Shown here: piece by piece, positions 1 to 49,116 of the stretch
Layout of the letters: each line of letters starts with the position of its first letter
Numbering within the stretch: position 1 is the first letter of the stretch
Assembly: GCA_963667465.2 (NCBI GenBank)
Contig: CAXXDN010000002.1
Span: forward strand, 288,001 to 352,000
Direction: 5' to 3'
DNA from: Dehalococcoidia bacterium
GTDB lineage: Bacteria > Chloroflexota > Dehalococcoidia > UBA2979
DNA: 64,000 bases
The notes under the pieces: generated by a model
Seen by the model: only the letters and a program-made list of their open reading frames with translations
Databases searched by the model: none
What the model was told of the DNA's origin: nothing
Made by a program: the position numbers and the translations under genes

Positions 1-573
1 ACAGCCCGGCCAGCTGCTGCACGCGTCCGTCGCGTCCGCTCCGACGACGTACGAGCCGCCGATCAGCGCGACGGCGACCAGCACCGTGGTGGAGATCGAG
101 ACCCGCAGGTACATCGCGCGTCGCGGGTCCTCGAGGCGGCGGCGCTCCGGCCCGAGGAAAGCAAACGCGGCGATCAGCGCGAGCACGGCTAGCAGCAGCA
201 GCGCCCCGCTCAGGTGCAGCGTGACGATCTCGGCGGGCAGCTCGCGCTCGACCGTCACCTTGCCGAGCCAGGCCTGGAGCGCCAGCAGCGGCAGCGAAGC
301 GATCGCCAGATTGCGCAGCGCACGGTCCCGGCGATGGAGCCGCAGCGTGACGGCGGCAGTCGCGACAATGAGCAGGCCGACGATCGCCGCCGCCGTGCGG
401 TGCGTGTACTCGATGATCGCGGTCCGCTCCGCGGGCGGGATGAGCTGGCCGTGGCAGAGCGGCCAGTCCGGGCAGCCGAGGCCGGAGCCGGTGGTCCGCA
501 CGATCGCGCCGATCGCGATCAGCACCAGCGTCGCGCCGACGGTGACGGCGGCCAGCCGCTGGTAGCGCGTCAC
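1..573 (-). CDS. ctaA: heme A synthase (COX15/CtaA), 3' part outside window
   Basis: Manual translation from GTG at 573 (not in the ORF track): MTRYQRLAAVTVGATLVLIAIGAIVRTTGSGLGCPDWPLCHG...IEYTHR, the CtaA CPDWPxC and EyxHR motifs; GTGA overlap with the upstream stop. Confidence 0.9.
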   Translation of the reverse strand, partial: MTRYQRLAAVTVGATLVLIAIGAIVRTTGSGLGCPDWPLCHGQLIPPAERTAIIEYTHRTAAAIVGLLIVATAAVTLRLHRRDRALRNLAIASLPLLALQAWLGKVTVERELPAEIVTLHLSGALLLLAVLALIAAFAFLGPERRRLEDPRRAMYLRVSISTTVLVAVALIGGSYVVGADATDACSSWPGC

Positions 574-749
574 TGCGCCTCGTCCTTCTCCGCCTCCTCG
601 CCCTCGGCCTCGGCCTCGGCGAGGCGCTCCTCGAGGCGCTGGACCTCGCGCTGCACGGAGCGCAGCCGCGCCTGCAGCCAGAGCAGGTAGACGAAGAGCC
701 CGGCCCAGAACACGGCGAAGCCGGCGAAGAGGAACTCGAGGAAGTCCAT
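570..749 (-). CDS. ccmD: CcmD-like heme exporter small subunit
   Basis: 59 aa MDFLEFLFAGFAVFWAGLFVYLLWLQ..., one TM helix plus charged tail, directly after ccmC. Confidence 0.75.
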   Translation of the reverse strand: MDFLEFLFAGFAVFWAGLFVYLLWLQARLRSVQREVQRLEERLAEAEAEGEEAEKDEAQ

Positions 750-1549
750 CAGGCTGCCCCGCTCCGTTGCGCCTCGCGGCGGTCGATCTCGGTGCGCAGG
801 TCGTCGCTGCGCACGCCGATCTGCTCGACCTCGGAGCGCAGCGCCACCAGCCACAGCGCGAGCAGCGTGATCGCCACCATGCCGAGCAGCAGTACCGCAA
901 GCATCGAGTCCGGCAGTGTCTGGCTGCCGGGCAGGCGCGTCACGATCGGGTCGGGGTGCAGGGTGCGCCACCAGCGCACGGAGAGGTTGACGATCGGGAT
1001 ATCGACGAAGCCGATGATCGCGAAGACCGCGGCGTAGCGGGCCGCCTGCACGTCGGTGCGCTCGGAGAGGCTGCGAGCCAGCAGGTAGCCGGCGTAGATC
1101 AGCAGCAGCACGAGGGTGCTTGTCAGGCGCGCGTCCCAGGCCCACCACACGCCCCAGATCGGCTTGCCCCAGATTGCGCCCGTGGCCAGCGTGAGCGCCG
1201 TGAACAGCACGCCCACGCTGGCCGCCGCCCGCGCGACCGCGTCGAAGCGCAGGTTGCGCGTCCAGAGCAGCGCGATTGAGGCGACGAACACGACGAAGAA
1301 GCAGAGATAGGCGGCAATCGCCGAGGGCACGTGGATGTAGAAGATGCGCTGCACCTCGCCCTCGATCGCCTCGCGCGGCGCGACGATCACGGCGCCGACG
1401 AGCATCGCGAGCATGAACGCGCCGGTGAGCGGCGGCAGCAGCGTCCAGCGCGCGTCGTACAGGGCCAGCATGGGACGCAGGGCGGCCAGGGCCCAGCGGG
1501 CCGCCGTGCCCCGCGAGGCGGTGTCGGCGGTGGGGGTCTGCGCGCTCAT
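749..1549 (-). CDS. ccmC: heme exporter / cytochrome c biogenesis protein CcmC
   Basis: WWD motif WGKPIWGVWWAWDARLT, flanking His (YIHVP, TLHP); start at MSAQ overlapping the ccmB stop. Confidence 0.93.
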   Translation of the reverse strand: MSAQTPTADTASRGTAARWALAALRPMLALYDARWTLLPPLTGAFMLAMLVGAVIVAPREAIEGEVQRIFYIHVPSAIAAYLCFFVVFVASIALLWTRNLRFDAVARAAASVGVLFTALTLATGAIWGKPIWGVWWAWDARLTSTLVLLLIYAGYLLARSLSERTDVQAARYAAVFAIIGFVDIPIVNLSVRWWRTLHPDPIVTRLPGSQTLPDSMLAVLLLGMVAITLLALWLVALRSEVEQIGVRSDDLRTEIDRREAQRSGAA

Positions 1550-2202
1550 TGCTCCGCCACGAAGGGGAACAGCAGGACACTGCCGAGGGCGGTCCACGCG
1601 GTGAAGACGGCGAGCAGCAGTAGCCAGGGCTCGCCGCCCGTCGGCAGATCGAGCGCGCCGCCCGTCGCGTGCACGGCGGCGATCAGCAGCGGCGTGAGCA
1701 GCGGCAACGCGAGTACGGGGATCAGCACCTCGCGCGAACGCACGCGGCTCCCGAGGGTGGAGAGCAGCGTAGTCAGGCTGACGTAGCCGAGCGTGCCGAG
1801 GACCATGATCGCGATCAGCTCCACGCTGAGCAGGGCGGTGTTGAAGAGGATAGTCGCCATCACCAGTACGGCCACCTCGATCAGCAGCAGCGCGAGCAGA
1901 TTGCTGATCAGCTTCGCCCCGTAGATCGCCGTGCGCGGCGCGGGGGCGACCAGCAGCGCGTCGAACGTGCCCTGCTCCGCCTCGGCCGCGAACGAGCGCC
2001 CGCTGGCGATGATCCCGGCGAAGAGGAACGTCACCCAGAGCACGCCCGGCAGCAGCGGCTTCACCTCGCCCGTCGCGAGGTCGAGGGCGAACGAGTAGGT
2101 CAGGACGCTGATCGCGGCGAAGGTCGCCGCGGAGAGCCAGCCGGACCGTTGCCGCCAGAGCAGCCGCAGATCCTTGAGCAGCACGGCAGTGGTTGCGTTC
2201 AT
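1546..2202 (-). CDS. ccmB: heme exporter permease CcmB
   Basis: KDLRLLWR, RSFAAEAEQGTFDALL, LIPVLALPLLTPLLI; between ccmA and ccmC. Confidence 0.9.
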   Translation of the reverse strand: MNATTAVLLKDLRLLWRQRSGWLSAATFAAISVLTYSFALDLATGEVKPLLPGVLWVTFLFAGIIASGRSFAAEAEQGTFDALLVAPAPRTAIYGAKLISNLLALLLIEVAVLVMATILFNTALLSVELIAIMVLGTLGYVSLTTLLSTLGSRVRSREVLIPVLALPLLTPLLIAAVHATGGALDLPTGGEPWLLLLAVFTAWTALGSVLLFPFVAEQ

Positions 2203-2873
2203 CGCGCAGCTCCCGCCGCAGCCCGGGACGCTTGCACGACCGCGCGGCCGGCGAGGAGTCGCCCGCGCTCCAGTTCCAGCACGCCGTCCGCCCAGGAGGA
2301 AACGCGCTCCCGCAGGTGCGTGGCGGCCAGGACGGTCAGGCCCGGCGCGTGCAGCACCAGCCGGTTGAGCACCTCGAGCGCCTCGCGGTCGAGGCCGGTC
2401 TCCGGCTCGTCGAGCAGCAGCACGGGTGGGCGGTGCAGCAGCGCGCGGGCGATCGCGAGCCGCTGGTGGTAGCCGCGCGAGAGCACGGCGGTGGGCTCGT
2501 CGCGGCGCAGCCACAGCCCCACCGCGCGCAACAGCTCCTCGACCCGCGCCCCGGCGTCGGCCACCGAGTAGAGGCGGGCGAAGAAGCGCAGGTTCTCCTC
2601 CGGCGTCAGCTCCTCGTAGAGCATCGGCTGATGCGTCAGCACCCCGATCGAGGCGCGCAGCGCCGAGCCATCCGAGGCGAGGTCGTGCCCGGCGACGGTC
2701 GCCTCGCCCTCGTTCGGCGAGAGCAGGGTGGAGAGCAGCGCGAGCAGCGTCGTCTTGCCCGCGCCGTTCGCGCCGAGCAGCGCGACCTTCGCGCCCTCGG
2801 CGACCTCGAACGAGACGTGGTCGACGGCGAGCGCGCTCCCGAAGCGCTTCGTCAGCCCGCGCGCCTCGATCAC
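2199..2873 (-). CDS. ccmA: heme ABC exporter ATP-binding protein CcmA
   Basis: Walker A GANGAGKTT, LSRGY signature, LLLDEP; operon context. Confidence 0.9.
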   Translation of the reverse strand: MIEARGLTKRFGSALAVDHVSFEVAEGAKVALLGANGAGKTTLLALLSTLLSPNEGEATVAGHDLASDGSALRASIGVLTHQPMLYEELTPEENLRFFARLYSVADAGARVEELLRAVGLWLRRDEPTAVLSRGYHQRLAIARALLHRPPVLLLDEPETGLDREALEVLNRLVLHAPGLTVLAATHLRERVSSWADGVLELERGRLLAGRAVVQASRAAAGAAR

Positions 2874-3892
2874 GCGGAGCCCCCGGCGCCCGCGCGCCGC
2901 AGGCCGGCGCGTAGCAGCAGCGCCCCGCCGCCGGTCACGAGGAGCGCGAGCAGCACCCCGGCGAGCGCGCCGCCCCTGTCGGTCAGCGGGTTAGCGGCGT
3001 TGCGCCCCGCCAGCCCCTCAAGGCGCACGCTGACGCTCTCGCCGGGCCTTGCCGCCGGGCGCACGATCACCTCGACGCGCTCCGTCGCGACTTCGCGCGA
3101 GTCCGCTCGCTCGCTTGCGCCGAGCGGCTCGAGGTCCTGGACGAAACGGCCGGGCACTTCGATCTCCATGCGCCCTGTCGGGAACGGCGCGGTGATGCGC
3201 AGGGTGTAGGCGTCTGCGGCGCGATCGTAGCCGACCACGTAGCGCGTGACGACCGAGGTGACGCCGGGCCGCAGCGCAGTCGTCGCGGCGATCACCCCGC
3301 CCTCGATCACGAAGCCGCTGTCCGTCCCCGCGCCGGAGGCCGCAACCACGCCGTCGGGCAGCGGCAGCCGCAGCGTGACGCCCTCCGCGTCGCCGACGTA
3401 GATGCGGTCGCCGGGGTTCGTCACCTCGTCGGTGCGCTCGATCGTCAGCTGCGCGGCTGCGCGGTCGAGCGCCAGCAGTGTCACCAGCGTCGCCTCGATG
3501 CGCAGGCCGGGGCGTTCGCGGGTCGCCTCGTAGATCGTGAGCTCGACGTCCGTCGTCGGGAGTTCGCGGGAGAGCAACAGGGGCGGCGAGAGGTACTGCA
3601 CGCCCTGGTACTCGGCGCGCACGACGTAGGTGCGCTGCGGATCGGCGGGCGCCTCGAACAGGAACGTGCCGCCCGCGCCGCTCACGGTCTGCACCGTCTC
3701 CAGACCACTGGCGCCGCCGAGGATGATCAGTTCCACGGCGATGTGCTCGGGAGCGGGGGCGCCTGCGCTGCCCTGCACCAGCGTCCCTCGGATCTCGCCG
3801 TCGGGCGTCTGCCCCGACGCCGGCGGAGCAAGGCCCGCCGGCGCGCCGCCGAGGAGGAGCGCGAGCAGCAGCAGCAGCGCCGTCCGGATCAC
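2870..3892 (-). CDS. exported membrane-anchored beta-rich protein in the ccm operon
   Basis: GTG start overlapping the upstream stop; signal peptide, beta-rich body, C-terminal TM helix. Confidence 0.7.
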   Translation of the reverse strand: MIRTALLLLLALLLGGAPAGLAPPASGQTPDGEIRGTLVQGSAGAPAPEHIAVELIILGGASGLETVQTVSGAGGTFLFEAPADPQRTYVVRAEYQGVQYLSPPLLLSRELPTTDVELTIYEATRERPGLRIEATLVTLLALDRAAAQLTIERTDEVTNPGDRIYVGDAEGVTLRLPLPDGVVAASGAGTDSGFVIEGGVIAATTALRPGVTSVVTRYVVGYDRAADAYTLRITAPFPTGRMEIEVPGRFVQDLEPLGASERADSREVATERVEVIVRPAARPGESVSVRLEGLAGRNAANPLTDRGGALAGVLLALLVTGGGALLLRAGLRRAGAGGSA

Positions 3893-4176
3893 GCCCGTGC
3901 GCGCACGTCGTCGCCCTCCGCGCGCAGCGTCTCGGTCAGCTCGCGCAGGCGGGGCGCGAGTGCGCGCCGCCCGGTGAGCCGTTCTCCGGGCGAGATGCGG
4001 CCGCTCGCCGCGTCGTCGTCCAGTTCGCGCAGCTCCGCGAGCAGCCGCGCGCGCTCCTCGCGCAGCGCCTCCAGCGAGGGCGCCTCGGCGGCCGGCAGAG
4101 CGGGCGCGCGGCGCAGGGGCAGGCCGATCAGCAGCGCCGCCAGCGTGGCGAACAGCAGCAGCACCAGCCACTCCAT
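3889..4176 (-). CDS. CcmI-like N-terminal domain protein
   Basis: TM helix then LLAELRELDDDAASGRIS, resembling the CcmI 'L.EL..D...G.I' segment; overlaps both neighbours. Confidence 0.65.
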   Translation of the reverse strand: MEWLVLLLFATLAALLIGLPLRRAPALPAAEAPSLEALREERARLLAELRELDDDAASGRISPGERLTGRRALAPRLRELTETLRAEGDDVRARA

Positions 4177-4700
4177 CAGGCGTCGCCTCCCCGCTCGGCG
4201 CCCGCGTCGAGCTGTTCGTCGAGCCAGCGCTCGTCGACCTCGGACGGCGCTCCGGCTGCGGCGAGGGGGCGCGCGCTGCGCCGCAGCCGCCACAGCGTCA
4301 TGCCGCCCCCGAGGCCGACGAGCAGGATCGAGCCGCCGACCCAGCCGAAGAGCACGAGGTTGAAGCCCGACCGCGGCAGATCCGCAAGCACGCGGTCGCC
4401 GAAGCGGGTGGAGAAGAAGAGCAGCACGTCGTCGTTGTTCGCGCCCGCCGCGAGCTGGTCGCGGATCTCGCGGCGCATGTCGTGGCAGACCTGCAACTCG
4501 CAGTGGTCGAGGCGCAGGTTCGTGCACTTTGGGCAGAGCAGCTGGCGCTCGAGCTGCAGCGCCTGCGCCTCCGGGTCCGGCTCGCTCGCCGAGCCCTCGC
4601 CGGGGGGCGCGATCGCCAGCAGCGCCGCCAGCGCGACGATGGCGATCGCCGCGACCGCCGCCGCGCCGAGCCCGATCCGCCGTCGCGCGGCCGGGTGCAG
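4176..4700 (-). CDS. ccmH: cytochrome c biogenesis protein CcmH (probable CTG start)
   Basis: The frame extends upstream of the ORF-track TTG to include a signal/TM helix and LLCPKC; MRREIRDQL...FGDRVL...P follows. Confidence 0.85.
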   Translation of the reverse strand: MHPAARRRIGLGAAAVAAIAIVALAALLAIAPPGEGSASEPDPEAQALQLERQLLCPKCTNLRLDHCELQVCHDMRREIRDQLAAGANNDDVLLFFSTRFGDRVLADLPRSGFNLVLFGWVGGSILLVGLGGGMTLWRLRRSARPLAAAGAPSEVDERWLDEQLDAGAERGGDA

Positions 4701-4701
4701 C

Positions 4702-6717
4702 TCAGGCCTCCGAGACCGGGCTGGCCGCGCCGGACGCTGGCGCCTCGCGGCGCTGCCTCGCGGGAGCGTTCACGGGTGCGAAGACCACGAGGCCGCCCGC
4801 GATGTAGACGCCTGCCCCGATCCAGAGCCAGAGCATCAGCGGGTTCACGAAGGCGCTGATCTCCGCGACGCCCTCGCTGTCCCAGCCCTGCAGGAAGACG
4901 TAGAGGTCCTCGCGCAGCCCCGTCTCGATGTCCACCTTCGTGAGCGGCACGCCAGGGAAGTTGGGGAAGAAGCGCCGCCCCGGTTCGAGCACGGCGACGA
5001 ACTCCCCGCCGTCCTGCACGCGCAGCAGCGACACCACCTCGGACTCGATCCCGTTCGCCAGGTCCGTACGCTCGCGCAGCCCGATGTACTCCACCGAGTA
5101 GCGCCCGATCTCGAACGACTCGCCGGGCGCGACCAGCGCGCGCGTCTGCTCCTGGTAGACGCTGGAGGAGACGGCGGCGATCGCCATCACGGCCAGCCCG
5201 AGGTGCACCAGGTAGCCGCCGTAGCGCCGCCGGTCGCGCTCGAACAGCGCCAGCACGGCGGCGGGCCAGTGCCGCCCGCTCGCCGCCCGCAGCGCGCGCG
5301 CCCCGAGCGCGAACTCGCGCAGCGTGACGTAGAGCAGCACTGTGGCGGAGATCAGCCCGGCGAGCGCGTAGCGGTCGCGCACGCCGAGCGTGACGAGGAG
5401 CGCGAGGCTCAGCAGCGCCACGGCCACGGGCCCTCGGAAGCGGCGCAGCAGCGTGACGCGGGCGGCGCGGCGCCACGGCAGCACCGTGCCGATCGCCATC
5501 AGCACCAGCAGCGCGACGAGCAACGGGCCGACGACGTCGTTGTAGAACGGCGCGGAGACGGTGATGCGCGCGTCCTGCAGCAGCTCCGAGAAGACCGGGA
5601 AGAGTGTCCCGCCAAGCACGATCAGCGCGATCACCGTGAACAGGTAGTTGTTCACGATCAGCGAGCTCTCCCGCGAGGCCAGCGACTCGAAGTCGTGGTC
5701 CGCCTGCAGCCGCCCGCTGCGCAGCGCCAGCAACACGACCGAGCCGAGCAGGGTCAGCCCGAGCAGCGCGAGGAAGTACGGGCCCACGTCGGAGACGGCG
5801 AACGAGTGCACGGAGGCGACAAGCCCGCTGCGCACGTTGAACGTCCCGAAGACGGCGAGCGCGAACGCCGCCAGCACGAGTGCGAGGTTCCACAGCTTCA
5901 GCATTCCGCGCCGCTCCTGGACCATCATCGAGTGCACGAACGCGGTCATCGGCAGCAGCGGCAGGATCGCCGAGTTCTCGACCGGGTCCCAGCCCCAGTA
6001 GCCGCCCCAGCCGAGCGTGGTGTAGGCCCAGAAGGCGCCGAGCAGGTTGCCGATGCTGAGCAGCAGCCAGGAGAGCAGCGCCCAGTGCCGCACGCTGCGC
6101 AGCCAGCGCCCATCGATCCGCCCGGACAGCAGCGCCGCCGCCCCAAGGGCGAAGGGCACCGCGGTGCTGACCAGCCCGGCGAGCATGAACGGCGGGTGGA
6201 CCAGCATCGAGCGGTCGACGAGCAGGGGATTGAGGCCGACGCCGTCCTCGGGTGTGACGGGGCTGACCTCGAAGGGCGAGGCGAGGAAGGCGACGGGCAG
6301 CAGGAAGGCGGCGAGGATGCCGCCGCTGATCGCCACCGCCTGCGCTGAGCCCCAGGGAATGCGCGGTACGGTCAGCAGCGCGAAGGCGGCGAGGAAGAGC
6401 GAGAGCAGCCACGTCCAGAACAGCAGCGAACCCGGCTGCCCACTGTAGAGCGAGGCCCACTTCATGTGCGGCAGCATCTCGCTCGATGAGACCTGCGCGA
6501 CGTGCGTCAGCGAGAAGTCGTCGTTGAGCAGCGCGTAGGCCAGCGTCCCGATCGCCAGCGTGGTGAAGCCGGCCGCGACCGGCAGCGCTCGCCGCGCCGC
6601 GCGCAGCAGCTCCGGCCGCTCGCGCAGGCTGGCCGCGAGCGCGGCGCCGAGGGCAAACAGCGCCGCCGCGAGCGCGGTCAGCACGGCGGCGGCTCCGATG
6701 GTGGCGGTGAGGTTCAT
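4702..6717 (-). CDS. ccmF: heme lyase CcmF
   Basis: WGGYWGWDPVEN, HPP, SVHSF, HLG motifs. Confidence 0.96.
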   Translation of the reverse strand: MNLTATIGAAAVLTALAAALFALGAALAASLRERPELLRAARRALPVAAGFTTLAIGTLAYALLNDDFSLTHVAQVSSSEMLPHMKWASLYSGQPGSLLFWTWLLSLFLAAFALLTVPRIPWGSAQAVAISGGILAAFLLPVAFLASPFEVSPVTPEDGVGLNPLLVDRSMLVHPPFMLAGLVSTAVPFALGAAALLSGRIDGRWLRSVRHWALLSWLLLSIGNLLGAFWAYTTLGWGGYWGWDPVENSAILPLLPMTAFVHSMMVQERRGMLKLWNLALVLAAFALAVFGTFNVRSGLVASVHSFAVSDVGPYFLALLGLTLLGSVVLLALRSGRLQADHDFESLASRESSLIVNNYLFTVIALIVLGGTLFPVFSELLQDARITVSAPFYNDVVGPLLVALLVLMAIGTVLPWRRAARVTLLRRFRGPVAVALLSLALLVTLGVRDRYALAGLISATVLLYVTLREFALGARALRAASGRHWPAAVLALFERDRRRYGGYLVHLGLAVMAIAAVSSSVYQEQTRALVAPGESFEIGRYSVEYIGLRERTDLANGIESEVVSLLRVQDGGEFVAVLEPGRRFFPNFPGVPLTKVDIETGLREDLYVFLQGWDSEGVAEISAFVNPLMLWLWIGAGVYIAGGLVVFAPVNAPARQRREAPASGAASPVSEA

Positions 6718-6741
6718 GCGGGCGGCCTCGCGTTCGCCTCG

Positions 6742-7185
6742 TCAGGGCGCCGCGATCGAGGCGTCTTCGGCGTCGGTCACGAACTCCGGCTCATGCCGGA
6801 TGATCACGCTCGTCGCCTGTAGCAGCCCCTCGCCGGCGGCGACGCCCTCGACGACCACGAAGGCGCGCGGCGTGAACAGGTCGGGGACGATGCCGTCGTA
6901 CTCGATGCGCATCGTCTCGCCCTCTTCGCCCTCGATCACCCAGCTCACGGGGCGGCCGTTCTCCTCGACGATTGTGCCGTCGACGACGCGCCCGCCGACC
7001 CGCCAGCGGCGGCCCTCGGCGTCGATCTCCTGGGCGAACTCCTCGGGCGTGGTGTAGTAGGCGCCGTCGAAGGCCTGCACCGCCATCGCCGTGATCGCGG
7101 CGGTCGCGATCACGAGGATCGCGACGAGGCGGCCTCGCCGGCTGGCGAGCGGGCCGTTGCTGACGAGGTTGCCGAGTCTGCTCAT
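6742..7185 (-). CDS. ccmE: heme chaperone CcmE
   Basis: YYTTPEE, RVGGRVVDGTI, YDGIVPDLF, VVVEG and C-terminal RHEPEF. Confidence 0.88.
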   Translation of the reverse strand: MSRLGNLVSNGPLASRRGRLVAILVIATAAITAMAVQAFDGAYYTTPEEFAQEIDAEGRRWRVGGRVVDGTIVEENGRPVSWVIEGEEGETMRIEYDGIVPDLFTPRAFVVVEGVAAGEGLLQATSVIIRHEPEFVTDAEDASIAAP

Positions 7186-15035: not shown

Positions 15036-15074
15036 CCGGCCCCCTCTCCTGGGGGAGAGGGCGGGGGTGAGGGG
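15036..15074. repeat. REP-like palindromic repeat type A, intact copy
   Basis: CCGGCCCCCTCTCCTGGGGGAGAGGGCGGGGGTGAGGGG; related copies at 28649, 28788 (inverted) and 47082/48596 (split by IS). Confidence 0.8.
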
Positions 15075-28648: not shown

Positions 28649-28825
28649 CCGGCCCCCTCTCCCCGCGCGGGAGAGGGCGGGGGTGAGGGGGCGCCGCGCG
28701 CCAGCGCGGCCAGCGCCGACGTGCTGCTGCGTCTGAACCCAGGGATCGAGGCGATCGCACGAGAACTCCGCGAGTCACCTCCGGAGTCCCCCTCACCCTA
28801 ACCCTCTCCCGCCAGGGGAGAGGGG
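28649..28825. repeat. inverted pair of REP-like type A repeats
   Basis: 28649-28691 CCGGCCCCCTCTCCCCGCGCGGGAGAGGGCGGGGGTGAGGGGG and 28788-28825 CCCCCTCACCCTAACCCTCTCCCGCCAGGGGAGAGGGG. Confidence 0.8.
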
Positions 28826-45681: not shown

Positions 45682-46491
45682 ATGGACCAACTCGAAGGCA
45701 AGGTGGCCGTCATCACGGGCGGCGGCAGCGGGATCGGCCAGGGCATCGTCGGCGCCTGCGTCGAGGCCGGGATGCGCGTCGTCGTCGCCGACATTGATCT
45801 CGACAGCGCGGAGCGTGTCGCCTCGGCGGCCCGCGAGAGCGGCGTCGACGCGATCGCGGTGCAGGTGGACGTCTCCGACCGCGTCGCGATGGACACCCTC
45901 GCGGAGCGCGCCTACGAGGAGTTCGGCGAGGTCAACCTGCTCTGCTGCAACGCGGGCGTGATCGTCGAGACCTCGATCGTGGACAGCACGGACGCCGATT
46001 GGGAGTGGCTGTTCCGCGTCAACGTGCTGGGTGCGGTGCACGGCGCCCAGACGTTCGTCCCGCGCATGCGCGACCAGGAGGGCGAGGCGCACGTCGTCAA
46101 CACCTCCTCGATGGCCGGGATCACCGTGCCGCCGGTGAACGTCTCCACCTACGCGGCCAGCAAGCACGCGGTCGTCGCCCTCACGGATCGCCTCCGCCAC
46201 GAGGTGGTCGAGGACGGCATCGGCGTCTCCGTACTCTGCCCGGGCGGGGTGGCCAGCCGGCTGTTCGAGGGCCATCGCCACGTGCCGGAGGACCTCGCCG
46301 ACAAGGTCACGCCCGCGCTGCGTACCGAGGGCCGCGGCCGCATGTCGCCCGCGCTCGTCGGCAAGCGAGTGCTGGACGCCGTGCAGGCCGGCCGCTTCTG
46401 GATCATCACGCACCCGCGCGAACGGGAGCGTGTCGACGAGCGCTACGAGGAGCTCCTCGCCGACTTCGCCTGGGCGCTGGAGCGTTCGTGA
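45682..46491 (+). CDS. SDR oxidoreductase, tandem copy 4
   Basis: TGGGSGIG, CNAG, YAASK; very similar to copy 3. Confidence 0.93.
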   Translation: MDQLEGKVAVITGGGSGIGQGIVGACVEAGMRVVVADIDLDSAERVASAARESGVDAIAVQVDVSDRVAMDTLAERAYEEFGEVNLLCCNAGVIVETSIVDSTDADWEWLFRVNVLGAVHGAQTFVPRMRDQEGEAHVVNTSSMAGITVPPVNVSTYAASKHAVVALTDRLRHEVVEDGIGVSVLCPGGVASRLFEGHRHVPEDLADKVTPALRTEGRGRMSPALVGKRVLDAVQAGRFWIITHPRERERVDERYEELLADFAWALERS

Positions 46492-46958
46492 GCGCCGCCA
46501 GCCCCGTTGCCGCCGCGCGCCGCGAGATCGAGCGGCTCGTCTACTACTACGCCGAGCTGCAGGACGCCGCGGACTGGGACGCCATCGCGGACATGTTCGA
46601 GCACGGCGACTTCGTGGCGGACTCGGGCGTGGGCTGGCGCGGCAAAGCGATCGCGGAGCGCCGCACGGCCAACGTGCGCGCCTACTTCGACGGCACGCCG
46701 CGCACCCGCCACGTCACGACGAACCTGACGATCGACATCGACCTCGATCGTGGCGAGGCAAGCGCCGAGTCCTGCTACACCATCCTGCAGGGCCCGCCCG
46801 CGTTGCCGCTCCAGCCGATCGCGGCCGGTCGCTACATCGACCGTTTCGAGTACGTCGGCGGCGCCTGGCGCTTCACCTACCGTCGCAGCGCCCTCGACCT
46901 GCTCAACCGCTTCGACGCCTTCCGCCGCGACTACGAGCCGCCCGAGGACGCCTCGTAG
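46488..46958 (+). CDS. SnoaL-like/NTF2 family protein
   Basis: IERLVYYYAELQD, TRHVTTN, GRYIDRF...WRF; GTGA overlap. Confidence 0.88.
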   Translation: MSAASPVAAARREIERLVYYYAELQDAADWDAIADMFEHGDFVADSGVGWRGKAIAERRTANVRAYFDGTPRTRHVTTNLTIDIDLDRGEASAESCYTILQGPPALPLQPIAAGRYIDRFEYVGGAWRFTYRRSALDLLNRFDAFRRDYEPPEDAS

Positions 46959-47043
46959 GACCCCCATCCTGGACGAGCACGCGCTGCGCGCGGCTCTGGC
47001 CCGCCCCACCCGCCCTCAGTGGATGCGGGGCTGCGCCCGCCGA

Positions 47044-47105
47044 CTGGATTCCGGCTTTCGCCGGAATGACGGGGAGGGGATCCGGCCCCCTCTTCCGGGG
47101 GAGAG
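47044..47105. repeat. REP-like type B repeat plus left part of an IS-interrupted type A repeat
   Basis: CTGGATTCCGGCTTTCGCCGGAATGACGG then CCGGCCCCCTCTTCCGGGGGAGAG; the remainder GGTGGGGGTGAGGGGG resumes at 48596. Confidence 0.8.
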
Positions 47106-47126
47106 ACACCCCAGGGTGCTAAGGCG

Positions 47127-48350
47127 TCAAGCGGCGAGCTGTTCGCGGTCGTGGCGGTGCGCCCAGGCGGTGGCCTCGTCGTAGGGGCGACGTGCCTTCA
47201 GGCAGCCGTGGAGGTAGCCGACGAGGCGGTTGCCGAGAGCGCGCAGCGCCTGGTGGTGGAGGTCGCCCGCGGCGCGGCGGCGGTGGTAGAAGTCATGGCA
47301 GCCGGGGCTCGCCTGCAGCGAGCAGAGCGCCCAGCGGTCCACGGCGTCGGCGAGCCGGCGGTTGCGCACGAAGCGGGCGCGCACGCTGCGCTTGCGGCCC
47401 GATGCTACGGTGAGCGGCGAGGTGCCGGCGTAGTTCCTGCGGGACTTCGCCGACTCGTAGCGTTCGGGGTCGTCCCCGAACTCGCCGAGCACCCGGGCGC
47501 CGAGCACGACACCGAGACCGGGCAGGGAACGGTAGATTGCGGCGTCCGGGTGCTGCTCAAAATGGCTCGTGAGCGCGGCCTCGAGCTCCGTAAGCTGACG
47601 GTTGATCTCGCTGATCTGCGCGACCGCCGCGCGGGTGCTCGCGGCGAACGCCCGGCTCACGGCAGGCGGCGCCTCGAGTTGCGGGGAGCGCAGCGCGTCG
47701 CGCACCGCGGCGGCGCGCCGCTCGAGGTTGCGCTGACGTCCGCCGCGGCGCAGCGCCGAGCGGATCTTCGACGTGCTCAGGCGCGCCGCCTCGCGCGGCT
47801 CGCTCGCCCGCGCCAGCACGCCCAGGGCGTCGCCGTGCGCGAGGCTGGGGAAGGCCTGCAGGGCAGCCGGGAAATACTCCCTGAGGGCGTTGCGCAGCCG
47901 GTTGGTCTGGCGCACGCGGTCCCAGATCAGCTGCTGGTGGGCGCGGGCGAGGATGCGCACCGCGGCAGCCTCGTCGCTGTCGCCGGCCAGCGGACGGTGG
48001 TTGTGGCGGTCGGTGCGCACGAGGTCGGCGAGCAGCTTCGCGTCGGCGGCGTCGGACTTGGCGCCGCCCAGGTGGTGACGCTCACGGTAGCGCGCCGCCG
48101 AGCGGGGGTTGATCGCGTAGACGCGGTAGCCGGCCGCGAGCAGGGCCGTGACCCAGGGTCCGCGGTCGGTCTCGATGCCGACCACGACCGCGCCCGGGTC
48201 TGAGGCGTGCTCGGCAACCAGTTCGTGCAGCACGGCGACGCCCGCGACGCCCTCGGGCAGCCGCCTGGCGGCGAGCCGTTCGCCGGCCTCGTTCATGAGC
48301 TGGACATCGTGGTGGTCTTCGGACCAGTCGTCACCGACGTAGAGGGTCAT
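47127..48350 (-). CDS. IS110 family DEDD recombinase/transposase
   Basis: YVGDDWS, GIE, KSDAADA (DEDD RuvC); LPGLGVVLGARVLGE, YAGTSPLTVASG (catalytic Ser domain). Confidence 0.95.
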   Translation of the reverse strand: MTLYVGDDWSEDHHDVQLMNEAGERLAARRLPEGVAGVAVLHELVAEHASDPGAVVVGIETDRGPWVTALLAAGYRVYAINPRSAARYRERHHLGGAKSDAADAKLLADLVRTDRHNHRPLAGDSDEAAAVRILARAHQQLIWDRVRQTNRLRNALREYFPAALQAFPSLAHGDALGVLARASEPREAARLSTSKIRSALRRGGRQRNLERRAAAVRDALRSPQLEAPPAVSRAFAASTRAAVAQISEINRQLTELEAALTSHFEQHPDAAIYRSLPGLGVVLGARVLGEFGDDPERYESAKSRRNYAGTSPLTVASGRKRSVRARFVRNRRLADAVDRWALCSLQASPGCHDFYHRRRAAGDLHHQALRALGNRLVGYLHGCLKARRPYDEATAWAHRHDREQLAA

Positions 48351-48399
48351 CGTGCCTCGCTTTCCTGCGCTTCGTGCTGCTGTTTGCGACCTGCCGGGC

Positions 48400-48560
48400 T
48401 GGTCCTGCGACGGCCTAATGGACCAGTGCTCTCGGGCACGACACCCCAGGAGTGCTGTGGACCACCCGGACACACCAGCCGGGGCACGGTCTCTCCCTGG
48501 AGATCGCAGTGTCTCGGGGAGGGGCAGTGCTCACCGGCCGGCCGGTCCAAGACCAGTCTC
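48400..48560 (-). ncRNA. IS110 bridge RNA (ends approximate)
   Basis: 5' loop guides CCCCUCCC / GGGAGAG match the target; 3' loop guides GGGGUGUC / CCAUUAG match the donor junction; flanking stems present. Confidence 0.8.
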
Positions 48561-48690
48561 CCAGATCGCTCCAGGGTCCGGTCGAACCCCATTAGGGTGG
48601 GGGTGAGGGGGCTCGCCCAACGCAGCTCGCGACCTCGGTTGGTTGTTACGCCCCTCCGGCCGGGGCGTGGAGCGCCGCTGTGCAGCCTCG

Positions 48691-49116
48691 TTAGAACGCG
48701 CGGTGCGTATCGATACGGCCGACGAGGTCCACGTGGGAGCGGCGGTAGAGGAAGCGCCACTCGCCGTCGACGCGCTCGAAGTGGTCGTGGTAGCGGCCCG
48801 CGACGATCGGCTCCAGCGGGAGCGTGTCCGTGCCCTGGAAGACCGTGTAGTACGAGTCAGCCGAGGCCGAGTTGTTCTCCTCGTCCACATCGATGGTGAT
48901 GTTCGTGGTGACGTGCTTCGTGGCGAGCTTGCCGTCATGCAGGATGTTCGAGCGCTTGCGGTGCGCGGACACCTCCGGACCGAGGAACGACTTGCCGTCG
49001 CCGCGCTGGAAGATCCCGTGCGAGAACAGCTCGGCGACCGCGTCGAAGTCGGCGGCGTCCTGCAACTCCGAGTAGTGGAACATCAGGCGGCGAATCGCCT
49101 GCTCGCTGGTGCTCAT
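48691..49116 (-). CDS. SnoaL-like/NTF2 family protein, paralog of 46488-46958
   Basis: IRRLMFHYSELQD, TKHVTTN, GRYHDHF...WRF. Confidence 0.88.
   Translation of the reverse strand: MSTSEQAIRRLMFHYSELQDAADFDAVAELFSHGIFQRGDGKSFLGPEVSAHRKRSNILHDGKLATKHVTTNITIDVDEENNSASADSYYTVFQGTDTLPLEPIVAGRYHDHFERVDGEWRFLYRRSHVDLVGRIDTHRAF

What the first reader, a model, noticed from the sequence alone, without database searches (positions are those of the whole stretch)
47104..48595. IS110 with a fully readable bridge RNA programmed against a host REP repeat
Seen, on the minus strand: the target is CCCCACC-CT-CTCCC and the donor junction after circularisation is GGGGTGT-CT-AATGG. The 243-bp non-coding end contains, 5' to 3': CCCCUCCC (48524-48517; left target guide, with one mismatch at the position that varies A/G among REP copies), GGGAGAG (48497-48491; reverse complement of CTCTCCC), GGGGUGUC (48447-48440; left donor guide) and CCAUUAG (48421-48415; reverse complement of CTAATGG). 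Each pair faces across an internal loop closed by stems (gcac/gugc, gaga/ucuc). Established: this is the IS621 bridge-RNA layout with a CT core. Inference: an intact RNA-guided recombinase from a high-GC lineage, with unoccupied target sites at 15036 and 28649.
Basis: partly seen in the sequence, partly recalled or inferred. Interest (0 to 1): 0.8.

Follow-up and report, generated by a model that had tools for sequence, protein, structure and literature searches.

The report
IS110 element with REP-targeting bridge RNA
This is an intact, recently active jumping gene of the IS110 family whose own guide RNA is written to match a repeated hairpin in its host genome, a well-supported new example of a mechanism first described in 2024.

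Summary
Window 47104-48595 (minus strand) is a 1,490-bp IS110-group insertion sequence. It has a 243-nt non-coding left end, a 407-aa DEDD/Tnp recombinase gene and a 21-nt right end.

- **Guide strings:** None of 20,000 dinucleotide shuffles of the left end holds all four.
- **Copies:** the genome carries 10 full copies, which differ at only one base, plus one copy cut by a contig end.
- **Target sites:** with the copies removed, 7 of 10 insertions fall in the 49 sites (of 317,756 CT sites) that match all 13 scored guide positions. Two fall in one-mismatch sites and one in a two-mismatch site.
- **Covariation:** across 80 related loci, mostly Dehalococcoidia MAGs, the target loop varies and tracks the flanks (12 right-guide classes; 109 of 144 pairs against 52±7 when shuffled). 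The donor loop and the element ends stay constant.
- **Structure and enzyme:** the two-loop fold has compensatory changes in 18 of 42 pairs. The residues that IS621 uses for catalysis are conserved.
- **Promoter:** a conserved TTGAC box in the right end would form a promoter only at the circle junction.
- **Not shown:** the RNA itself, the circle, and activity.

This is a new member of a known kind, of moderate interest.

The parts
47104..48595 (-). Whole insertion sequence with both copies of the CT core. The mobile unit is 1,490 bp.
   Evidence: Ten full-length copies share these exact ends. A contig of run X9 joins 47105 to 48596 without the element.
48596..48602 (-). Left target half CCCCACC, part of the host REP.
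47099..47103 (-). Right target half CTCCC. It is the start of the 5' arm of the REP hairpin, which continues to about 47075.
48351..48593 (-). Left end, 243 nt, non-coding. It encodes the bridge RNA.
48551..48583 (-). 5' stem-loop (helix 1).
   Evidence: 5 pairs, 2 with compensatory change, 94.5% of cells paired.
48474..48542 (-). Target-binding stem-loop. The outer stem is 48542-48527 with 48487-48474. The inner stem is 48515-48512 with 48503-48500.
   Evidence: Helix 2: 14 pairs, 5 compensatory, 98.5% paired. Helix 3: 4 pairs, 3 compensatory, 100% paired.
48516..48524 (-). Left target guide CCCCUCCCC. Positions 1-4 and 6-8 match the REP. Position 5 (U) and position 9 (C) do not.
48491..48497 (-). 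Right target guide GGGAGAG, the complement of CTCTCCC.
   Evidence: 7 of 7 at 9 of 10 full copies. 12 guide classes covary with their flanks.
48489..48490 (-). Candidate handshake guide AC of the target loop, complementary to donor positions 7 and 6 (T, G).
   Evidence: It never varies, so there is no covariation. The concept comes from passages of PMC11208158.
48394..48469 (-). Donor-binding stem-loop. The outer stems are 48469-48459 with 48405-48394, and 48455-48452 with 48411-48407. The inner stem is 48439-48436 with 48429-48426.
   Evidence: Helix 4: 11 pairs, 7 compensatory, 82.5% paired. Helix 5: an A-U to G-C switch in 6 sequences. Helix 6: invariant.
48440..48447 (-). Left donor guide GGGGUGUC, equal to the right-end terminus plus the core C.
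   Evidence: In Actinomycetota relatives the guide and the terminus both read GGGAUGU.
48415..48421 (-). Right donor guide CCAUUAG, the complement of the left-end start CTAATGG.
   Evidence: RNAalifold pairs the two.
48413..48414 (-). Candidate handshake guide GC of the donor loop. Its first base pairs with target position 7.
   Evidence: 39 of 41 Watson-Crick, including 3 classes switched from G:C to C:G.
47127..48350 (-). Recombinase gene, 407 aa plus the stop codon. D8, E60, D100, D103 and S317 are the candidate catalytic residues.
47106..47126 (-). Right end, 21 nt, ending in GGGGTGT.
47125..47130 (-). TTGACG, a candidate -35 box overlapping the stop codon. It lies 18 nt before the terminal T, which would form TCTAAT with the core and the left end only after circularisation.
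   Evidence: TTGAC is kept in 25 of 26 distinct right ends at a spacing of 17-19 nt, including ends where it lies past the stop codon.
48472..48472 (-). Private base of this copy, T where the other nine have C. It lies in the unpaired linker between the two stem-loops.
15053..15066 (-). Unoccupied target CCCCGCC-CT-CTCCC in a REP unit.
28669..28682 (-). Unoccupied target CCCCGCC-CT-CTCCC in a REP unit.

Best explanation
An intact IS110-group insertion sequence that picks its insertion site through a bridge RNA encoded in its own left end.

The inferred cycle follows IS621:
1. The element leaves its site as a circle. This joins GGGGTGT-CT-AATGG.
2. The join places the conserved TTGAC box of the right end 17-19 nt upstream of T|CT|AAT, which would drive transcription into the left end.
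3. The RNA of roughly 190 nt folds into a 5' stem-loop and two stem-loops with internal loops.
4. The donor loop (GGGGUGUC and CCAUUAG) pairs with the two strands of the circle junction.
5. The target loop (CCCCUCC-C and GGGAGAG) pairs with the two strands of CCCCNCC-CT-CTCCC. That site is the start of the 5' arm of a host REP hairpin.
6. A recombinase tetramer, with a DEDD RuvC domain and S317 of the Tnp domain as nucleophile, exchanges strands at the CT core.

Shown here: the anatomy, the site specificity of all copies, covariation between guides and targets, covariation in the stems, and conservation of the catalytic residues and the -35 box.

Inferred by analogy with IS621: that the RNA is transcribed, the circle, the chemistry, and present-day activity.
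For: - **Family.** Pfam DEDD_Tnp_IS110 at 130.3 bits and Transposase_20 at 42.8 bits. NCBIfam transpos_IS110 at 185.8 bits, cutoff 140. Profile hits to ISCro4 9t56 (E 5.8e-12) and IS621 8wt6 (E 1.9e-11).
- **Catalytic residues.** D8, D100, D103 and S317-G318 align to IS621's D11, D102, D105 and S241-G242. All are invariant in 14 homologs.
- **Copies.** 10 full copies differing at one base, and an 11th cut by a contig end that has the same right flank.
- **Specificity.** Of 317,756 CT sites in the genome with the copies removed, 49 match 13 of 13 guide positions and hold 7 of the 10 insertions. The 47 one-mismatch sites hold 2, the 218 two-mismatch sites hold 1, and sites with 3-4 mismatches hold 0 of 8,732.
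- **Guide-target covariation.** 77 usable insertions gave 45 distinct guide/flank sets, 17 guide classes and 12 right-guide classes. Cognate pairs average 5.16 of 7 (left) and 4.62 of 5 (right). Non-cognate pairs average 2.56 and 1.97. With one representative per right-guide class the total is 109 of 144 against 52.0±6.9 when shuffled (maximum 89), reached by 0 of 100,000 shuffles.
- **Structure.** 42 pairs, 94.4% of cells paired against at most 44.5% when slid. 18 pairs have changes on both sides, against 10.0±1.8 in shuffles (0 of 500 reach it).
- **Handshake position.** The base 3' of the right donor guide pairs with target position 7 in 39 of 41 sets, with 3 G:C to C:G switches.
- **Promoter.** A conserved -35 box at fixed spacing. 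The integrated element has no promoter-like site by the scan tool.
- **Polymorphism.** One contig of a related strain (run X9) bridges the site without the element.
- **Distribution.** Patchy and multi-copy. 13 of 99 genomes of the order have a match, and 7 of 18 other genomes of the genus.
Against: - No RNA evidence. No RNA run was listed as holding the stretch.
- No circle junction was seen. Only assembled contigs could be laid, and these drop rare forms.
- The single-sequence fold is no better than shuffles: z -0.47, with 65 of 200 shuffles folding as well.
- No Rfam 15 family matched the left end.
- The left target guide has a true mismatch, U opposite C, at position 5 for 44 of 49 matching sites. 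Its 9th base does not pair with the core T.
- One of 10 copies has two mismatches to the right guide (CTAACCC).
- The relatives L061 and L062 match their left guide at only 3 of 7 positions.
- HMMER places IS621's E60 two columns from this protein's E60. Equating them rests on the shared IE motif, which is my reading.
- Related loci are kin, so row counts overstate independence. I therefore collapsed them to classes before testing.
Confidence: 0.88

Rival explanations
1. The element is a true IS110 member, but the protein reads the REP hairpin by shape or sequence. The left-end complementarities would then be by-products with no guiding role.
For: All targets here lie in a hairpin-forming REP. 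An abstract on ISPpu10 reports a target stem-loop as a second specificity layer. The donor guides never vary among the Dehalococcoidia copies, so they give little covariation on their own.
Against: Relatives with 67-92% identical proteins insert into at least 12 different right-flank sequences, many of them not REP. In each case the loop sequence changes to match. A protein-only code would not predict base-for-base tracking in an RNA loop held between covarying stems.
Confidence: 0.04
2. The copies are recent but now silent, or this particular copy is disabled by its private base at 48472. The window would then hold a relic and not a working element.
For: No RNA or circle evidence. This copy alone carries T at element position 124. 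The junction -10 is imperfect.
Against: All 10 reading frames are open and identical in protein. The catalytic residues are intact. The private base lies in the unpaired linker, outside every helix and guide. Copies that are all but identical argue for very recent movement.
Confidence: 0.07
3. The four complementarities are chance matches in C- and G-rich sequence.
For: The left target guide is low-complexity. It appears in 1,795 of 20,000 shuffles.
Against: 0 of 20,000 shuffles hold all four motifs. The covariation and the site census also speak against it.
Confidence: 0.01

Closest known systems
IS621 of Escherichia coli (IS110 group), the bridge RNA prototype. Sources: Durrant et al. 2024, PMC11208160, and Hiraizumi et al. 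2024, PMC11208158. I read passages of both.
   Same: - A long left end that encodes the RNA, and a short right end.
- A CT core.
- A 5' stem-loop followed by a variable target loop and a conserved donor loop.
- Left guides read like the top strand and right guides are its complement.
- The left donor guide is 8 nt, as in IS621 (A123-C130).
- A -35 box in the right end that needs circularisation.
- It targets a REP.
- The DEDD and Ser residues are conserved.
   Different: - The protein is 407 aa against 326. Plain phmmer did not find IS621; a profile was needed.
- The right target guide is 7 nt here, against 4 nt in IS621.
- The 9th base of the left target guide does not pair with the core T.
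- The RNA sequence is unrelated, and no Rfam family matched it.
- The host is a 71% GC genome whose nearest relatives are labelled Dehalococcoidia.
ISCro4 transposase (PDB 9t56).
   Same: It is the best solved-structure match to the profile, E 5.8e-12 over both domains.
   Different: It is only distantly related. I did not compare its RNA.
ISPpu10 and ISPpu9 of Pseudomonas putida, IS110 elements that target REP or intergenic repeats. I read abstracts only.
   Same: Multi-copy IS110 elements that insert into one repeated intergenic hairpin-bearing sequence.
   Different: For ISPpu10 the abstract describes a GC-rich stem-loop as a 5' extension of the target. Here the core lies at the start of the hairpin's 5' arm, so the hairpin is on the right-target side. 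A structural role here is untested.
IS1111 group and seekRNA elements.
   Same: The same recombinase family and RNA-guided logic.
   Different: Those encode the RNA in a long right end (passage). Here the right end is 21 nt and the left end 243 nt, so this is an IS110-group element.

Membership tests
IS110 family, IS110 group (bridge recombinase elements) | A recombinase with an N-terminal DEDD RuvC-like domain and a C-terminal Tnp domain. | tested here: met
   PF01548 at residues 5-161 (E 6.9e-38) and PF02371 at residues 273-356 (E 7.1e-11). NF033542 at 185.8 bits, above the cutoff of 140.
IS110 family, IS110 group (bridge recombinase elements) | The catalytic residues D, E, D, D and Ser (IS621 D11, E60, D102, D105, S241). 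| tested here: met
   D8, D100, D103 and S317-G318 align directly. The chain numbering runs 2 ahead of the paper's. E60 is invariant but sits 2 columns off in the HMMER alignment, so I matched it through the IE motif by eye. The residue roles come from passages.
IS110 family, IS110 group (bridge recombinase elements) | No long terminal inverted repeats, and a 2-bp core present at both junctions. | tested here: met
   CT flanks all 10 copies. The ends CTAATGGGG... and ...GGGGTGTCT are not inverted repeats of each other, as read directly from the sequence.
IS110 family, IS110 group (bridge recombinase elements) | The left end is much longer than the right end, with the RNA in the left end. | tested here: met
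   243 nt against 21 nt. The criterion comes from a passage.
IS110 family, IS110 group (bridge recombinase elements) | An RNA with a 5' stem-loop and two stem-loops with internal loops, the first variable and the second conserved. | tested here: met
IS110 family, IS110 group (bridge recombinase elements) | The target-loop guides pair with both strands of the insertion site and covary with it. | tested here: met
IS110 family, IS110 group (bridge recombinase elements) | The donor-loop guides pair with both strands of the joined element ends. | tested here: met
   8 of 9 and 7 of 7 matches. There is one covarying position: GGGG to GGGA in both the guide and the right end of 4 Actinomycetota classes. 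L097 is an exception that a G·T wobble would explain.
IS110 family, IS110 group (bridge recombinase elements) | A promoter rebuilt at the RE-LE junction of the circle. | tested here: inconclusive
   The -35 box TTGAC is conserved in 25 of 26 distinct right ends at 17-19 nt. The junction -10, TCTAAT, lacks the A at position 2. The joined sequence could not be given to the scan tool.
IS110 family, IS110 group (bridge recombinase elements) | A circular intermediate and a transcribed RNA of about 180 nt. | not testable with these tools
   Only assembled contigs were available and no RNA run was listed.
Rfam RNA families | A match of the left end to any curated family. | tested here: not met
   No hit in the left end at E up to 1. 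The only hit above threshold, Ms_AS-4, lies antisense inside the recombinase gene.

The most novel reading that the evidence does not exclude
This clade may be a natural reprogramming series on one conserved scaffold.

Within proteins 67-92% identical, the target loop has been rewritten to at least 12 right-flank targets while the donor loop stayed fixed. Sister elements with one shared right guide (GGGAGAG) but different left guides address the two strands of the same palindromic REP. Guides of the CCxxGCC type take one strand, and UGGCUCC or CGGACCC take the other.

The window's element would then be a fresh variant. Its left guide (CCCCUCC) is mismatched at position 5 to the common REP allele, so the rare better-pairing alleles are filled first. 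Non-G sites are occupied in 3 of 5 cases and G sites in 4 of 44 (Fisher p = 0.017). The REP hairpin on the right-target side might act as a second, structural gate, as reported for ISPpu10.
Probability: 0.3. Interest if true: 0.5.

Novelty: new member of a known kind. Interest (0 to 1): 0.4.

Why it matters
The mechanism is known, so the value lies in the example.

- It is a compact, apparently active bridge recombinase system from a 71% GC genome. The element's nearest relatives are all in MAGs labelled Dehalococcoidia. My library search found no paper that holds both 'IS110' and 'Dehalococcoidia'.
- It comes with a ready-made comparative set: about 40 distinct left ends on one scaffold, 17 guide classes, known insertion sites for each, and natural off-target cases. 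Such a set can inform rules for guide length (a 7-nt right guide), mismatch and wobble tolerance, and handshake positions.
- It offers a diverged 407-aa orthologue for testing as an editor.
- For genome annotation, it explains 11 repeats and at least one assembly break in this genome. It also shows that the REP family is the landing pad.

Tried and rejected
**Single-sequence folding.** The minimum-energy fold is no better than shuffles (z -0.47). It mispairs the loops, so I did not use it.

**RNAalifold.** It pairs the left-end start CTAATGG with the right donor guide. That is the guide-donor complementarity itself and probably not an RNA helix if transcription starts downstream of the junction. 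I replaced it with a hand-drawn donor stem and tested that.

**Plain phmmer against PDB.** It found nothing. A profile was needed.

**Rfam.** No family matched the left end.

**Sequencing runs.**
- No RNA holder was listed. This says nothing about expression.
- All four runs laid were assembled contigs.
- No RE-LE junction joint was listed, and contigs cannot show rare circles.
- Depth ratios were not used as copy numbers.
- The X9 contig that skips the element carries 11 other letters at the joint. I cannot tell an ancestral REP variant from an excision scar.

**Promoter scan.** The integrated element gave 0 promoter-like and 0 terminator-like sites. The junction itself could not be scanned, because a joined sequence may not be typed.

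**Donor-like right half at off-consensus sites.** One own copy, L018 and L019 share CTAA with the donor's right half, which recalls 'half-match' recombination (abstract only). I noted it but did not test it. The genome holds no unoccupied CCCCNCC-CT-AACCC site to compare with.

**Outer donor-stem register.** I tried several registers by eye before settling on helices 4 and 5. Helix 4 is the weakest, at 82.5% paired.

**Literature.** The first search was too loose to be useful. One search replaced it. Supplementary tables of Durrant et al., which list thousands of orthologues, were not open, so this element or a near relative may already be listed there.

**Rows dropped.**
- L083 is 5'-truncated at a contig start and was never analysed.
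- L020 and L026 have a left end whose 5' part is replaced, and were excluded from the statistics.
- Ten further rows lacked one flank: L041, L076, L078, L087, L090, L091, L092, L094, L095 and L096.
- L084 and L097 were left out of the protein alignment because each has a stop codon in the stretch I gave.

Full report
**What is in the sequence.**
Read on the minus strand, window 47104-48595 is bounded by CT on both sides. On the left, host sequence CCCCACC-CT runs into AATGGGG. On the right, GGGGTGT-CT runs into CTCCC.

Between them lie three parts:
- a 243-nt stretch without a conserved reading frame (48593-48351);
- an ATG-started ORF of 407 codons (48350-47130, stop at 47129-47127);
- 21 nt of right end.

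In 20,000 dinucleotide-preserving shuffles of the 243 nt, none contained all four and 4 contained three.

**The protein.**
- It matches Pfam DEDD_Tnp_IS110 (E 6.9e-38, full length of the model) and Transposase_20 (E 7.1e-11).
- It passes NCBIfam's equivalog 'IS110 family RNA-guided transposase' at 185.8 bits against a cutoff of 140.
- Plain phmmer found no solved structure.
- A profile of 14 homologs (alignment A2) reached the ISCro4 transposase (9t56, E 5.8e-12) and the IS621 transposase (8wt6, E 1.9e-11) over both domains.
- In that alignment D8, D100, D103 and S317-G318 stand opposite the residues that Hiraizumi et al. call D11, D102, D105 and S241-G242 (passages). The deposited chain is numbered 2 higher.
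- E60 is invariant in A2. HMMER puts it two columns from IS621's E60, and I equate them through the shared I-E motif. That step is my reading, not a tool result.

**Copies and where they sit.**
The window's genome is 2.97 Mb in 2 contigs at 71% GC. It has 10 full-length copies and one copy cut off by the end of contig C2. Six further short weak matches make 17 in all.

Nine copies are identical. The window's copy differs at one base, element position 124, window 48472. The collapsed contigs of all four sequencing runs carry the majority base there.

I removed the copies in a script and classed every CT dinucleotide on both strands by its match to the 13 guide-specified positions. Left position 5 was set aside.

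| Mismatches | Sites | Insertions |
|---|---|---|
| 0 | 49 | 7 |
| 1 | 47 | 2 |
| 2 | 218 | 1 |
| 3-4 | 8,732 | 0 |

The total is 317,756 CT sites. The truncated 11th copy has the same right flank.

The target is the start of the 5' arm of a REP hairpin...CCCCTCACCCCCGCC-CT-CTCCC-loop-GGGAGAGGGGGCCGGA. There are 42 unoccupied exact sites, where base composition predicts about 1.4. Two of them lie in the window, at 15053-15066 and 28669-28682.

**Relatives and covariation.**
A scan of one genome per species found 243 stretches encoding relatives, of which the best 80 were kept. Almost all are in MAGs labelled Dehalococcoidia (75-92% identity). A few are Actinomycetota and Smaragdicoccus (67-71%).

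Together with the window's own, they have 39 distinct left ends. Aligned, three features are nearly invariant: the left-end start CTAATGGG, the donor-loop strings, and the right-end terminus GGG(G/A)TGT. The two target-loop strings differ from element to element.

For each locus I read the guides from the alignment and the flanks from the DNA. Of 89 rows, 77 had everything needed. They collapse to 45 distinct sets, 17 guide classes and 12 right-guide classes.
- Cognate guide-flank pairs match at 5.16 of 7 (left) and 4.62 of 5 (right) non-core positions.
- Non-cognate pairs match at 2.56 and 1.97.
- With one representative per right-guide class the total is 109 of 144. Shuffled assignments give 52.0±6.9 with a maximum of 89. 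None of 100,000 reaches 109.

There are exceptions. L061 and L062 match their left guide at only 3 of 7 positions. L018, L019 and one copy in the window's genome have CTAACCC where the right guide predicts CTCTCCC.

Many left-guide differences are U opposite a top-strand C, which would be a U·G wobble with the bottom strand. Relatives on the same REP carry CCUCGCC or CCUUGCC, which pair at position 5 and wobble at positions 3 and 4. The window's element carries CCCCUCC, which pairs at 3 and 4 and mismatches at 5.

**RNA structure.**
RNAalifold on 29 left ends found the target stem-loop, with its outer and inner helices. It also paired CTAATGG with the right donor guide.

I drew the donor stem-loop by hand from compensatory patterns and counted the whole structure:
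- 42 pairs in 6 helices;
- 94.4% of cells paired, against 26.8-44.5% when the partners are slid by 1-3 columns;
- 18 pairs with changes on both sides, against 10.0±1.8 in shuffles (0 of 500 reach 18);
- 70 such cells, against 18.4±4.5.

Since I derived part of the structure from these sequences, the slid control flatters it somewhat. The compensatory counts do not depend on that.

The layout matches what Durrant et al. report for 103 orthologues: a 5' stem-loop, then a poorly conserved internal loop, then a well conserved one (passage). In window coordinates the structured part runs from 48583 to 48394. That is about 190 nt, against 177 nt for IS621.

**Handshake positions.**
Hiraizumi et al. 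describe two bases 3' of each right guide that pair with positions 7 and 6 of the other partner after strand exchange (passages).
- Here the target loop has AC, complementary to donor T7 and G6. It never varies, so it tells little.
- The donor loop has GC. Its first base pairs with target position 7 in 39 of 41 distinct sets. In three classes the target has G and the RNA has C.

**Promoter.**
The right end carries TTGACG overlapping the stop codon.
- Among 26 distinct right ends, 25 have TTGAC and one has TTGCC.
- The box is always 17-19 nt before the terminal T: 18 nt in 19 ends, 17 in 6 and 19 in 1.
- This holds even in relatives where the box lies 30-96 nt past the end of the protein match, so its conservation there is not coding.
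- Joined to the core and the left end, the terminal T gives TCTAAT. That matches TATAAT at five of six positions but lacks the A at position 2.
- The integrated element shows no promoter-like site.

By analogy with IS621 (passages) I read this as a junction promoter, and I mark it as inferred.

**Other samples.**
Twenty runs hold part of the stretch. Those with a plain label are sponge or viral metagenomes, and none is on record as RNA.

Laying the contigs of four runs showed one 6,081-nt contig of run X9. Its flanks differ from the window by a few letters per hundred, and it passes from 47105 to 48596 without the element but with 11 other letters at the joint. A related strain therefore lacks this insertion. 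What the extra letters mean is open.

Within the order, 13 of 99 genomes have a strong match. Within the genus, 7 of 18 others do. Five of the negatives are assemblies of 1-8 contigs, so the element is patchy and not merely unassembled.

**Verdict.**
Transcription, the circle and present activity are still missing.

The kind of element is known. Bridge RNAs, REP targeting by IS110 elements, junction promoters and handshake guides are all in print. New here are the host lineage, the diverged 407-aa protein, the 7-nt right guide, and the natural series of rewritten target loops with their insertion sites. No paper in the library holds both 'IS110' and 'Dehalococcoidia'. The supplementary orthologue lists of the 2024 paper could not be opened and may include it.

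Noticed in passing
window 47445-47526 (+): Rfam Ms_AS-4 (RF02464, 'Actinobacteria sRNA') matches at 65.1 bits (gathering score 50, E 3.4e-09). The match is antisense to the most conserved part of the recombinase gene. The family may simply track the coding sequence of IS110-type transposase genes.
   Followed up: no
window 47040-47075 (-): A second hairpin repeat, GTCATTCCGGCGAAAGCCGGAATCCAG, lies just beyond the REP. It has 5 exact copies in the genome. The bin that holds it reaches summed contig depths of 222 to 7,015 in the four runs, far above its neighbours. It may be shared by many organisms in those samples.
   Followed up: partly
G000 C2:1583211-1584702 (locus L003), and L018, L019: Off-consensus insertions all have the right flank CTAACCC where CTCTCCC is predicted. 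The first four letters equal the donor's own right half. The genome has no unoccupied CCCCNCC-CT-AACCC site. This may relate to the 'half-match' off-targeting reported for IS621 (abstract only).
   Followed up: partly
genome-wide, left-target position 5: Among sites matching all other guide positions, those with G are occupied in 4 of 44 cases and those with A, C or T in 3 of 5 (Fisher p = 0.017). The single site that pairs perfectly with the guide's U is occupied. The numbers are small.
   Followed up: partly
L020 and L026: Two relatives keep the donor loop and the gene but have unrelated sequence in place of the 5' stem-loop and target loop. They may be truncated or rearranged copies without a target guide.
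   Followed up: no
window 47105/48596, run X9: The contig that lacks the element has 11 extra letters at the joint, so the empty allele of that related strain is not the simple restored target.
   Followed up: no
window 45999-46958 (+) and 48691-49116 (-): The two ORFs that converge on the insertion site have visibly similar sequences (…YAELQDAADWDAI… and …YSELQDAADFDAV…). They look like paralogs. I saw this by eye and did not test it.
   Followed up: no
G000 C2:1903831-1904564: Contig C2 ends inside an 11th copy of the element, so this repeat probably caused the assembly break. The protein search reads that stretch at only 85% identity with a TGA, which suggests errors near the contig end.
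   Followed up: partly
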